Source: a virus
DNA: 64,000 nt
Virus genome (UHGV): UHGV-1519562
Strand: one strand, 5' to 3'
Shown: piece by piece, positions 23,113 to 24,174 of the stretch
Layout: the number at the start of each line of letters is the position of its first letter
Position numbering within the stretch: position 1 is the stretch's first letter
The notes under the pieces: generated by a model
The model's input: only the letters and a program-made list of their open reading frames with translations
Told to the model about the DNA's origin: nothing
The model's database searches: none
Program-made: the position numbers and the translations under genes

Positions 23113-24174
23113 ATGATATTATTAAATGATGATAATAGACATAGAGACTTTACAGGTGTAACTCGTTTCCATAATGCGGGCTATTTTGGAGAAAGAGTAA
23201 ATGCCGCAAGTGGAGAAACCTGGGATATTAATAGATATAATCCAGATAATTTAGTAAGAAATTGTTTAAAGGACAAACAATTTTCAGATGAACATCCAAT
23301 AAATACTGCGGCAACATTTTTTCAAGTAGCTCCAAAAGCTCATCTATTTATGCTTTATTCCATTGATGGCAGTTATGGCAGTAGAGATAATTATAACTCT
23401 AAATTTTTTAATGAATCAGTAGAAATTATTGAAAAATATAATATTACTAATATGTTTACCTCTTTAAATTGCAGTAGACATACTAAATTTTTTGAAGATT
23501 TAAAAAATTGGTATATTAAACATCCTAGTTTTAAACCCTTTTGGTGTGCAGGAAATGATTCTTCTAAAAAATATAATCCAATTATGGAAATTGAAGAAGT
23601 AATCGGCGTAGCCGCTTATACTTTAATGGTAGATGGTACAGTAAATCCTGCTTATTATTCTAGTATTAGTAGCTATGTAGATTTTTCTGCACCTAGTATG
23701 ATTTATTTAAATCCGCAAGCTACAAAACCAGACGCAGCAACTTATTCCAATTCTGGCACTTCTTTTTCTACACCTTGGTTATGTGGAATGAGCTGTCTGG
23801 TAGATGATTTCTTTATTGATAAAAAAGGATTACCTCTAACAAGAGAAGGAATGATTCAATTCTTCAAAGATAATTGTAAAGATATAGGCGATAAGGGAAT
23901 TGATCCAAAAACAGGATTTGGTGCGGTAATTTTACCTGAACCAAATTCTATTGATATTGATAAATATTATAATATTGGGAGGACAAATATGAGTACATTA
24001 GATAAATTTAAAGATAAAAATGATATTTCTAATTGGGCTAAAGCAAGTGTTGAATGGGCTGTTAATACAGGTATTCTTCAAGGTGATGATAAAGGCTATC
24101 TTTTACCCAAAGCTTACCTGACTAGAGAGCAAATGGCAGTTATGTTAGAGCGTTTTAAAAATATTATAAAATAA
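23113..24174 (+). CDS. subtilisin-like (S8-type) serine peptidase-fold protein with C-terminal SLH cell-wall-binding domain
   Basis: SGTSFSTPWLCG Ser motif, CAGND oxyanion-type motif; C-terminal NWAKASVEWAVNTGILQGDDKGYLLPKAYLTREQMAVMLERF matches the SLH pattern. Confidence 0.5.
   Translation: MILLNDDNRHRDFTGVTRFHNAGYFGERVNAASGETWDINRYNPDNLVRNCLKDKQFSDEHPINTAATFFQVAPKAHLFMLYSIDGSYGSRDNYNSKFFNESVEIIEKYNITNMFTSLNCSRHTKFFEDLKNWYIKHPSFKPFWCAGNDSSKKYNPIMEIEEVIGVAAYTLMVDGTVNPAYYSSISSYVDFSAPSMIYLNPQATKPDAATYSNSGTSFSTPWLCGMSCLVDDFFIDKKGLPLTREGMIQFFKDNCKDIGDKGIDPKTGFGAVILPEPNSIDIDKYYNIGRTNMSTLDKFKDKNDISNWAKASVEWAVNTGILQGDDKGYLLPKAYLTREQMAVMLERFKNIIK

What the first reader, a model, noticed from the sequence alone, without database searches (positions are those of the whole stretch)
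23113..24174. SLH domains on two phage proteins point to an S-layer-bearing host
The S8-like peptidase and the cysteine-peptidase endolysin candidate (33388..34176) both end in a sequence matching the SLH pattern (WA...GI.QG...G...P...LTR.E.A.ML.R). SLH domains bind pyruvylated secondary cell-wall polymers of S-layer-producing Firmicutes. With NrdD/NrdG and radical SAM genes this suggests an anaerobic Clostridia- or Bacillus-type host.
Basis: partly seen in the sequence, partly recalled or inferred. Interest (0 to 1): 0.45.

Follow-up and report, generated by a model that had tools for sequence, protein, structure and literature searches.

The report
Two SLH-anchored phage lysis enzymes
A roughly 137 kb gut phage carries two cell-wall-targeted enzymes that each end in one S-layer-homology anchor: an ordinary cysteine-peptidase endolysin, and a member of a small, unannotated family of subtilisin-like proteases that sit in phage lysis cassettes.

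Summary
ORF A (23113-24174) and ORF B (33382/33388-34176) each end in a single SLH domain that scores above Pfam's cut-off (38.2 and 24.0 bits against 20.8). No other ORF in the window has one.

ORF B is a papain/C39_2-type endolysin. It has a disordered linker and an overlapping small membrane-protein gene. This architecture (one enzymatic domain plus one C-terminal SLH) has been characterised only since 2025 (LysBT1, LysPt).

ORF A is the more interesting gene. It has a subtilisin fold with no signal peptide or propeptide, and an invariant Glu-His-Ser triad with Glu in place of Asp32. The family is small: 326 clusters among 1.84 billion representatives. Its members are fused to SLH, SH3, LysM, Cu_amine_oxidN1, amidase, CHAP and NAGPA modules. 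In other phages they lie next to profile-confirmed holins and amidases. I read ORF A as an accessory lysin, most plausibly acting on S-layer or wall proteins. That substrate is inferred, not shown.

The host inference is partly supported. An anaerobic, roughly 28% GC, Clostridia-type Firmicute is likely. Possession of an S-layer is plausible but untested, and a Bacillus-type host is not indicated.

The parts
23113..24174 (+). ORF A, 353 aa: subtilisin-fold peptidase without propeptide or signal peptide, plus one C-terminal SLH domain
   Evidence: ORF. Pfam S8 and SLH. AF2 model with pLDDT 93.6. Foldseek top hit subtilisin BPN', E=1e-15, TM 0.74.
23113..23982 (+). Catalytic domain (residues 1-290). 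Predicted active site: Glu35 (nt 23215-23217), His61 (23293-23295), oxyanion Asn148 (23554-23556), Ser217 (23761-23763)
   Evidence: The profile-to-PDB alignment places E35 on Asp32, H61 on His64, N148 on Asn155 and S217 on Ser221 of subtilisin BPN'. These residues are invariant in 29 homologues and in distant fusion proteins. In 100 family representatives S217 is invariant and the other three are >=90% conserved.
24004..24138 (+). Single SLH domain of ORF A (residues 298-342), with motif W..G..LTREQ
   Evidence: Pfam E=1.4e-9. Matches Sap and SpaA SLH modules.
23069..23092 (+). Terminator-like hairpin (10 bp stem followed by a T run) just upstream of ORF A
   Evidence: 4 terminator-like sites found against 0.5 expected in shuffles.
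24179..24201 (+). Terminator-like hairpin 5 nt after the ORF A stop codon. Together with 23069-23092 it makes ORF A an insulated single-gene unit
33382..34176 (+). ORF B, 264 aa (likely start at 33388): endolysin made of a C39_2/papain-like cysteine peptidase, a disordered linker and a single SLH
   Evidence: Pfam. Cys36 (nt 33487-33489) and His134 (33781-33783) are invariant in 20 homologues. AF2 model: N-terminal domain pLDDT about 90, linker residues 182-196 below 50. Foldseek best hit 3erv, a C39-like peptidase from B. anthracis.
34033..34134 (+). Single SLH domain of ORF B (residues 218-251), with motif W..G..LTRLE
   Evidence: Pfam E=3.9e-5, 24.0 bits against a 20.8 cut-off. Homologue-derived SLH profile E=1.5e-21.
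34160..34501 (+). 113-aa ORF overlapping the end of ORF B by 17 nt. It has a basic N-terminus, one clear hydrophobic segment (about residues 27-46) and a second weaker one. Holin candidate, not confirmed
   Evidence: Hydropathy analysis. No PHROG or Pfam hit. The same arrangement occurs in relatives of the phage. A GenBank phage relative of ORF B is annotated 'C39-like peptidase | r1t holin'.
34511..34545 (+). Strong terminator-like hairpin (16 bp stem) closing the unit formed by ORF B and the 113-aa ORF
56260..59210 (+). NrdD (56260-58389) and NrdG activase (58713-59210): anaerobic ribonucleotide reduction, used here as evidence for host lifestyle
   Evidence: NrdD is 71-72% identical to chromosomal NrdD on 28-29% GC bacterial contigs.

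Best explanation
Both genes encode enzymes made in the cytoplasm without signal peptides. They reach the wall only when the membrane is breached at lysis. One C-terminal SLH domain holds each of them on the wall, presumably after assembling into a homotrimer that mimics the three-repeat SLH module and binds the host's SLH ligand (pyruvylated secondary cell-wall polymer). ORF B is the phage's peptidoglycan-cleaving endolysin, with a Cys36-His134 papain-like fold, and is probably co-transcribed with a small membrane protein. ORF A is a second, accessory lysin. It is a minimal subtilase with a Glu35-His61-Ser217 triad and Asn148 as oxyanion residue. Its family is used as an interchangeable enzymatic module in phage lysis cassettes and, wherever this could be checked, occurs together with a true peptidoglycan hydrolase. 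Because subtilases cut ordinary L-peptide bonds in extended chains, its most plausible substrate is protein on the wall: the SLH-anchored S-layer or other wall proteins that occupy the same polymer. Clearing that layer would free the wall for the endolysin and the virions. Shown here: the domains, the fold, the conserved active-site residues, the domain fusions, the cassette context in relatives, and the Clostridia affinity. Inferred: catalytic activity, substrate, trimerisation, the ligand, and an S-layer on the host.
For: SLH on both proteins. Subtilisin fold. Catalytic positions mapped by profile alignment and conserved across the family. No hydrophobic N-terminus. Small distinct family: 326 clusters at E<=1e-3 among 1.84e9 representatives. 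Domain partners in 100 representatives: SLH 48, Cu_amine_oxidN1 13, NAGPA 13, SH3_3 7, Amidase_2 6, CHAP 2, NlpC/P60 2, plus Amidase_3, Glucosaminidase, M15, LysM, SPOR and C39_2. Lysis-cassette context in relatives: Phage_holin_1 followed by S8+Amidase_2+SLH (L088); S8-SLH, then holin (phrog_297, 1e-22), then amidase (L101); S8-SLH, then XhlA-like, then holin (1e-27), then a PlyL-like Amidase_2 (L109); S8-SLH then holin (phrog_263, 6e-25) (L104); an S8+CHAP fusion (L115). Wherever enough of a relative's sequence could be annotated, a bona fide PG hydrolase is fused to the S8-like domain or encoded in the same cassette (L088, L101, L109, L115), and in the window phage ORF B lies 9 kb away. Published precedent: single C-terminal SLH endolysins bind walls and trimerise (LysBT1, PMC12285257). 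In Paenibacillus thiaminolyticus the S-layer occludes the ligand of such SLH domains until it is stripped (bioRxiv 10.64898/2026.09.23.753664). Host evidence.
Against: In this window ORF A is not in the lysis cassette. It lies 9 kb upstream of ORF B, among RNA-repair-like genes, as an insulated unit between two terminators, and its timing of expression is unknown. No substrate was tested. Fusions to amidase and CHAP domains fit a peptidoglycan endopeptidase equally well. A Glu-for-Asp triad is unusual in subtilases, and activity is assumed from conservation only. About half of the family members carry anchors other than SLH, so the enzyme is not tied strictly to SLH-type walls. The holin next to ORF B has no profile support.
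Confidence: 0.6

Rival explanations
1. ORF A is a genuine peptidoglycan endopeptidase. It would be a second endolysin catalytic type that cuts stem peptides or interpeptide bridges, acts together with the C39_2 enzyme as in two-domain endolysins, and has no role in removing S-layer protein.
For: The domain is fused to Amidase_2, Amidase_3, CHAP, NlpC/P60, glucosaminidase and M15 modules exactly as endopeptidase domains are in bicatalytic endolysins. It sits beside holins.
Against: By established enzymology, subtilases bind extended L-peptide chains, whereas stem peptides contain D-residues and gamma or isopeptide links. Wherever it could be examined the domain accompanies another PG hydrolase rather than replacing it. 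Fusion to NAGPA phosphodiester glycosidase in 13 of 100 representatives points to wall polymers or their cargo rather than to the glycan-peptide mesh.
Confidence: 0.28
2. ORF A is a catalytically dead or non-lytic wall-binding protein, for example a scaffold or a competitor for SLH sites, and the Glu substitution marks loss of protease function.
For: The canonical Asp32 is replaced. The Pfam S8 score is marginal and covers only the C-terminal half of the domain.
Against: Glu35, His61 and Asn148 are invariant in the 29-sequence alignment and >=90% conserved across 100 representatives down to 25% identity, and Ser217 is invariant in all of them. That pattern is typical of an active enzyme. The model is confident (pLDDT 93.6).
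Confidence: 0.06
3. The host is a diderm that uses SLH domains to tether its outer membrane to polyamine-modified peptidoglycan or pyruvylated polymer (Negativicutes-, Melainabacteria- or Thermus-like), not an S-layer-bearing monoderm.
For: By my own knowledge and as stated in PMC12285257 for SlpA, single-copy SLH domains that trimerise are typical of such outer-membrane proteins. Low-GC gut Melainabacteria exist.
Against: In a published survey Peptidase_C39_2 endolysin domains were exclusive to phages of Gram-positives (PMC8223927). Nearly all 80 genome loci with relatives of ORF B are from Clostridia. The polymerase is closest to phages of Bacillus and Enterococcus. The characterised single-SLH endolysins come from the monoderms Brevibacillus and Paenibacillus.
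Confidence: 0.06

Closest known systems
LysBT1 (Brevibacillus thermoruber prophage endolysin; PMC12285257, 2025) and LysPt1/7/9/10 (Paenibacillus thiaminolyticus; bioRxiv 10.64898/2026.09.23.753664)
   Same: One N-terminal enzymatic domain, a flexible linker and ONE C-terminal SLH domain with a TRAE-like motif. No signal peptide. Lysis-cassette context. ORF B has exactly this layout.
   Different: The enzymatic domain of ORF B is a C39_2/papain-like cysteine peptidase, not an amidase. The phage is a roughly 137 kb, 29-31% GC element from anaerobic gut-type metagenomes rather than a prophage of an aerobic Bacillales species. Trimerisation and binding have not been tested for ORF B.
Subtilisin BPN' and the intracellular subtilisins (peptidase family S8A)
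   Same: Same fold (Foldseek E=1e-15, TM 0.74). Same order and position of His64, Asn155 and Ser221 equivalents. The GTSxxxP serine motif is present.
   Different: 17-20% identity. Glu replaces the catalytic Asp32. There is no propeptide and no signal peptide. A wall-binding domain is attached. The family is small and phage-associated, with only 326 clusters found by phmmer, so it does not merge with the bulk of S8.
Bicatalytic modular endolysins of Gram-positive phages (for example CHAP+amidase+SH3b types) and the PBSX XhlA-XhlB-XlyA cassette
   Same: The S8-like domain is swapped and fused with amidase, CHAP and NlpC/P60 domains and with SH3, LysM or SLH anchors. In L109 and L107 it lies directly upstream of an XhlA-like/holin/amidase set.
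   Different: No subtilase-type domain appears in the endolysin domain surveys that I could search.
Accessory lysis proteins that breach a layer outside peptidoglycan: spanins (outer membrane) and mycobacteriophage LysB (mycolyl-arabinogalactan). This analogy comes from my own knowledge.
   Same: A second enzyme or factor encoded with holin and endolysin, which acts on the envelope layer that peptidoglycan hydrolysis leaves intact.
   Different: The analogy is functional only. The fold, chemistry and target differ, and the target here (S-layer or wall protein) is inferred.
A0A8S5T9E9, 'S-layer homology domain' protein of Siphoviridae sp. ct0Wl9 (BFVD)
   Same: A family member: 40% identity, TM 0.83 over the full length.
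   Different: It is annotated only for its SLH domain. The subtilase domain is not recognised in its name, and no function has been assigned.

Membership tests
SLH domain (Pfam PF00395) | Profile match above the curated gathering score | tested here: met
   ORF A 38.2 bits and ORF B 24.0 bits, against a cut-off of 20.8.
SLH domain (Pfam PF00395) | Conserved W...G...TRAE-like motif with the Arg that contacts pyruvylated polymer | tested here: met
   ORF A has WAKASVEWAVNTGILQG...LTREQ and ORF B has WGKDELNWAVSMGLIKG...LTRLE. ORF A aligns to Sap SLH1, LTRAE.
SLH domain (Pfam PF00395) | Three tandem repeats forming the three-pronged pseudotrimer (canonical S-layer-protein module) | tested here: not met
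   Each protein has one repeat only. A functional module would need homotrimerisation.
SLH domain (Pfam PF00395) | Binding to pyruvylated SCWP; host encodes CsaB | not testable with these tools
   The host genome is not identified and no binding assay is possible.
Single-SLH endolysins (LysBT1/LysPt type) | Enzymatic domain, linker and one C-terminal SLH, with no signal peptide | tested here: met
   ORF B has C39_2 at residues 32-152, a disordered linker at 182-196 and SLH at 218-251.
Single-SLH endolysins (LysBT1/LysPt type) | Adjacent holin (lysis cassette) | tested here: inconclusive
   The overlapping 113-aa ORF has one clear hydrophobic segment and shares a terminator-bounded unit with ORF B, but it has no PHROG or Pfam holin match.
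Single-SLH endolysins (LysBT1/LysPt type) | SLH-mediated trimerisation and wall binding | not testable with these tools
   Only single-chain prediction is available.
Peptidase_C39_2 / papain-like cysteine peptidase (ORF B) | Profile match, papain-like fold and conserved Cys-His dyad | tested here: met
   Pfam E=1.2e-12. C36 and H134 are invariant. Foldseek hits 3erv and PCAT1/ComA peptidase domains.
Subtilase family S8 (ORF A) | Subtilisin alpha/beta fold | tested here: met
   Model pLDDT 93.6. Subtilisin BPN' at E=1e-15, TM 0.74. Profile against PDB E=3e-16.
Subtilase family S8 (ORF A) | Catalytic triad Asp-His-Ser in that order, plus oxyanion Asn | tested here: not met
   His61, Asn148 and Ser217 are present and conserved, but the Asp32 position holds Glu35, which is invariant among close homologues and >=90% conserved family-wide. 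This is a variant triad, so ORF A is best described as S8-like.
Subtilase family S8 (ORF A) | Secretion signal and N-terminal propeptide (typical of the family, not universal) | tested here: not met
   The fold starts at residue 5. There is no hydrophobic N-terminus and no I9 match.
Phage lysis-cassette enzyme (ORF A family) | Encoded next to a holin and/or fused to known PG hydrolase and wall-binding modules | tested here: met
   This holds for relatives: L088, L101, L104, L109, L115 and the fusion statistics. It does NOT hold for the copy in this window, which is 9 kb from ORF B and stands alone.
Phage lysis-cassette enzyme (ORF A family) | Lytic or proteolytic activity on host envelope | not testable with these tools
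   Needs biochemistry.

The most novel reading that the evidence does not exclude
The S8-like family is a dedicated 'S-layer breacher'. It would be a third functional class of lysis protein in phages of S-layer-bearing monoderms, released by the holin and docked by its SLH domain onto the same wall polymer that anchors the S-layer. There it would proteolyse the S-layer or SLH-anchored protein coat, freeing both the endolysin's binding sites and the progeny. This would make it the Gram-positive S-layer counterpart of spanins and LysB.
Probability: 0.3. Interest if true: 0.8.

Novelty: new variant of a known kind. Interest (0 to 1): 0.55.

Why it matters
First, single-SLH endolysins were first characterised only in 2025-2026, in two aerobic Bacillales. 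ORF B and its more than 1,500 relatives show that the same anchoring solution is widespread in phages of anaerobic gut Clostridia, here combined with a different catalytic domain.

Second, how phages get out through, or make room on, a wall covered by an S-layer is essentially unstudied. A conserved protease that is wall-anchored, lies in lysis cassettes and accompanies ordinary endolysins gives a concrete candidate that can be tested directly.

Third, the family supplies a new enzymatic module and new binding modules for engineered lysins and for probes aimed at S-layer-bearing anaerobes. It is also a natural example of a Glu-His-Ser subtilase that folds without a propeptide.

Fourth, for host prediction, SLH anchors on lysins are a usable though coarse marker of wall type.

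Tried and rejected
- Megablast of 20 kb of the window against 50,697 phage records gave no hit.
- tblastn of ORF A against phages gave only an SLH-only hit in Dulem virus 33, with no relative of the catalytic domain. The ORF A catalytic domain against 72,556 plasmids gave no hit.
- Host naming failed. The NrdD search returned 8000 hits, but none of the 120 listed carried an organism name. Cluster look-ups gave no names or accessions. The afdb50 library, which might have given organisms, was unavailable.
- The SLH profile found nothing in the 22 kb around the bacterial nrdD. That stretch is too small to be informative.
- The S8-like profile found no copy in the 80 named Clostridia prophage loci, so no named host could be attached to the ORF A family.
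- The holin candidate had no PHROG or Pfam match.
- I considered and rejected the idea that the SLH hits are chance or compositional. E-values, the motif, matches to solved SLH modules and conservation in homologues all argue against it.
- I considered and rejected a prohead or maturation protease role for ORF A, because wall-binding and PG-hydrolase fusions make that untenable.
- I considered a virion-associated entry enzyme. This is disfavoured because relatives lie with holins and amidases, not inside tail modules, but it is not excluded.
- Homotrimer modelling of the SLH domains was not possible, because only single-chain prediction is offered and artificial concatenations are not accepted.
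Full report
**What the window is.** The window is 27-39% G+C, mostly about 29%. Nearly all genes are on the + strand. It carries 16 tRNA genes and a large-phage replication and nucleotide set: GyrB/GyrA, an ATP-dependent ligase, DnaB, primase, RecJ, a Pol III alpha subunit, NrdD/NrdG, ThyX and dUTPase. Identical or near-identical copies of the two proteins lie on metagenome and IMG/VR contigs of 130-140 kb, so the element is a phage of about 137 kb. It has no nucleotide-level relative among 50,697 deposited phage genomes. Its polymerase is closest to SPbeta-like Bacillus phages (39% identity over 99% of its length) and to large Enterococcus phages.

**The observation.**
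- ORF A (23113-24174, 353 aa) and ORF B (33382-34176, likely start 33388) both exist as described.
- Pfam places an SLH domain at residues 298-342 of ORF A (E=1.4e-9; 38.2 bits against a cut-off of 20.8) and at residues 218-251 of ORF B (E=3.9e-5; 24.0 bits).
- A profile built from the C-termini of homologues finds these two ORFs and nothing else in the six-frame translation of the window.
- The ORF A SLH alone retrieves the crystallised SLH modules of Sap and SpaA. It aligns best to the TRAE-bearing first repeat of Sap.
- The family profile hits Sap at E=3.5e-11.
- The two SLH domains are 35% identical.

**ORF B.**
- The N-terminal 180 residues match Peptidase_C39_2 (E=1.2e-12).
- Cys36 and His134 are invariant in 20 homologues.
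- The model is a papain-like domain (best solved match 3erv, a C39-like peptidase of B. anthracis), followed by a disordered linker (182-196) and a small helical C-terminal domain.
- A 113-aa ORF with a basic N-terminus and at least one membrane-spanning segment overlaps its 3' end. The pair is closed by a 16-bp-stem terminator. The small ORF matches no holin profile, so its identity is inferred.
- More than 1,500 protein clusters are related to ORF B.
- Of the 80 best genome loci, nearly all are from Clostridia: Oscillospiraceae, Ruminiclostridium, Evtepia, Lachnospiraceae, Anaerotignum and Aminipila.
- Seven of those loci also encode canonical 2-3-repeat SLH proteins within 2 kb of the endolysin.
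- A published survey found C39_2 endolysin domains only in phages of Gram-positives (PMC8223927).
- The architecture 'one catalytic domain plus one C-terminal SLH' was first characterised in LysBT1, which trimerises through its SLH domain (PMC12285257). It was then found in four Paenibacillus thiaminolyticus prophage endolysins, whose SLH probes bind only after the S-layer is stripped (bioRxiv 10.64898/2026.09.23.753664).
- ORF B is a new member of that kind, with a different catalytic domain.

**ORF A, structure.**
- Pfam sees only the C-terminal half of a subtilase, marginally (25.2 bits against a cut-off of 21.8).
- A 29-sequence alignment gave a confident model (pLDDT 93.6). Its best solved matches are subtilisin BPN' variants (E=1e-15, TM 0.74 relative to the target, 17-20% identity).
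- The family profile aligned to subtilisin BPN' puts His61 on His64, Asn148 on Asn155 and Ser217 on Ser221. It puts Glu35 on the catalytic Asp32.
- All four residues are invariant in close homologues and in distant fusion proteins. Among 100 representatives reaching down to 25% identity, S217 is invariant and the other three are at least 90% conserved.
- The fold begins at residue 5. There is no signal peptide and no propeptide.
- ORF A is therefore S8-like with a variant Glu-His-Ser triad. Strict membership of S8 by the Asp-His-Ser criterion is not met.

**ORF A, family and context.**
- The catalytic domain alone finds only 326 clusters (E<=1e-3) among 1.84 billion representatives. It finds nothing in 50,697 phage or 72,556 plasmid records.
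- It finds one family-level match (40% identity) among BFVD viral structures, annotated merely 'S-layer homology domain'.
- Across 100 representatives the partners are SLH (48), Cu_amine_oxidN1 (13), NAGPA phosphodiester glycosidase (13), SH3_3 (7), Amidase_2 (6), CHAP (2) and NlpC/P60 (2), plus Amidase_3, glucosaminidase, M15 peptidases, LysM, SPOR and C39_2 (examples). This is the domain vocabulary of Gram-positive phage lysins.
- Context agrees in 20 IMG/VR loci spanning 31-57% G+C:
  - L088: Phage_holin_1 is followed by S8+Amidase_2+SLH.
  - L101: S8-SLH is followed by a holin (phrog_297, 1e-22) and an amidase endolysin.
  - L109: S8-SLH is followed by an XhlA-like protein, a holin (1e-27) and a PlyL-like Amidase_2.
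  - L104: S8-SLH is followed by a holin (6e-25).
  - L115: the gene is an S8+CHAP fusion followed by small membrane proteins.
- Wherever enough sequence could be annotated, the S8-like domain accompanies a true peptidoglycan hydrolase rather than replacing it.
- In this window the gene is not in the cassette. It lies 9 kb upstream of ORF B, between a Ro/TROVE-like RNA-binding gene and a cREC/nucleotidyltransferase/phosphoesterase/RNA-ligase cluster. It is bracketed by two terminator-like hairpins (23069-23092 and 24179-24201), against 0.5 such sites expected by chance in the region. That arrangement is a self-contained inserted unit.

**Mechanism.** I commit to the following.
- Both proteins accumulate in the cytoplasm and reach the wall at holin triggering.
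- Their single SLH domains dock them, probably as trimers, onto the host's SLH ligand.
- ORF B cuts peptidoglycan peptides.
- ORF A is an accessory lysin.
- Its substrate is the least certain step. I favour wall-bound protein (S-layer or other SLH-anchored proteins) for four reasons: subtilases cut L-peptide chains; the domain always co-occurs with a PG hydrolase; half of the family carries the S-layer-type anchor; and 13% is fused to an enzyme class that should act on phosphodiester-linked wall polymers.
- The Paenibacillus work, which shows that an S-layer occludes the ligand of single-SLH lysin domains, gives a rationale: clearing the S-layer frees the sites.
- The main rival is a peptidoglycan endopeptidase. 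It is supported by the same fusions and I give it about 0.28.

**Host.**
- The anaerobic lifestyle is supported by NrdD/NrdG.
- The phage NrdD is 71-72% identical to an nrdD-nrdG pair in an ordinary bacterial chromosomal context (TyrRS, Mur ligases, ABC transporters) on contigs of 28-29% G+C. This matches the phage's composition. It is a candidate host lineage that I could not name.
- With the Clostridia distribution of ORF B relatives and the Firmicute-phage polymerase, a low-GC anaerobic Clostridia-type host is likely.
- A 'Bacillus-type' host is not specifically supported.
- That the host bears an S-layer is plausible by analogy with the two characterised systems, but it is not shown.

**Verdict.**
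- ORF B is a new member of a very recently recognised kind.
- The ORF A family is a new variant of a known kind: a new enzymatic module in modular phage lysins, with a variant catalytic triad. I found no description of it in the searchable literature, which covers only open-access papers.

Noticed in passing
window 21535-31385: ORF A is embedded in what looks like an RNA-repair or tRNA-maintenance cluster next to a tRNA array. The cluster contains a Ro/TROVE-like DUF2828+DUF7788 protein (phrog_850 'RNA-binding', 6e-111), a cREC_REC cyclic-phosphate-processing receiver domain (24340-24597), a nucleotidyltransferase (24599-25495), two metallophosphoesterases, an RNA ligase (27510-28787), a YqeY-like protein and an AAA_33 kinase.
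   Followed up: partly
window 12158-12230: ARAGORN reports a tRNA with a four-base anticodon (tgaa) and undetermined identity, among 16 tRNA genes in two arrays (10234-12942 and 20167-21479). It could be a frameshift-suppressor-like or mis-modelled tRNA.
   Followed up: no
window 49500-51779: A RecD/UvrD-type helicase (AAA_30, UvrD_C_2) carries a LAGLIDADG_3 homing-endonuclease domain at residues 267-328, which suggests an intein or inserted endonuclease.
   Followed up: no
L025 (JAFTFU010000004.1, 120,761 bp contig of 'Clostridia bacterium RGIG3779', 27.8% GC): This locus carries the closest named-genome relative of ORF B (68% identity over the catalytic domain, with an SLH). Long-ORF coverage doubles from 0.37 to 0.73 if TAG is read as sense, which suggests a TAG-recoded large phage binned into a MAG.
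   Followed up: partly
L092-L095 (for example ERZ24773477 NODE_79, 216 kb): A bacterial chromosomal nrdD-nrdG on 28-29% GC contigs is 71-72% identical to the phage NrdD. This points to recent exchange with the host lineage and gives a handle for host identification.
   Followed up: partly
L090/L091 6175-9773: In a related 81-97 kb phage the S8+NAGPA+SH3+SLH gene appears to be split by an IS605-type TnpB/OrfB insertion (6768-7883). A 64-aa N-terminal S8 fragment lies at 6175-6366 and the rest at 7938-9770.
   Followed up: partly
L001 763-3909 (273 kb contig): In a jumbo-phage relative that carries an S8-SLH gene, nrdD is called as two pieces with an HNH_3 endonuclease gene just downstream, which suggests an interrupted or intron-containing nrdD.
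   Followed up: no
L003 18427-19101: A related phage encodes an additional 224-aa protein with 2 SLH-like repeats and no recognised catalytic domain.
   Followed up: no
window 61675-63859: This is the only sizeable block of minus-strand genes. It has higher GC (37.6%) and reversed GC skew. It includes a small SprT/IrrE-like metallopeptidase motif protein (61675-62007), so it may be the start of a divergent module.
   Followed up: no
window 13507-14739: There is a weak match, below the cut-off (E=3e-4), to the N-terminal domain of the Bordetella-phage major tropism determinant (Mtd_N). It could be a receptor-binding protein. No DGR components were looked for.
   Followed up: no
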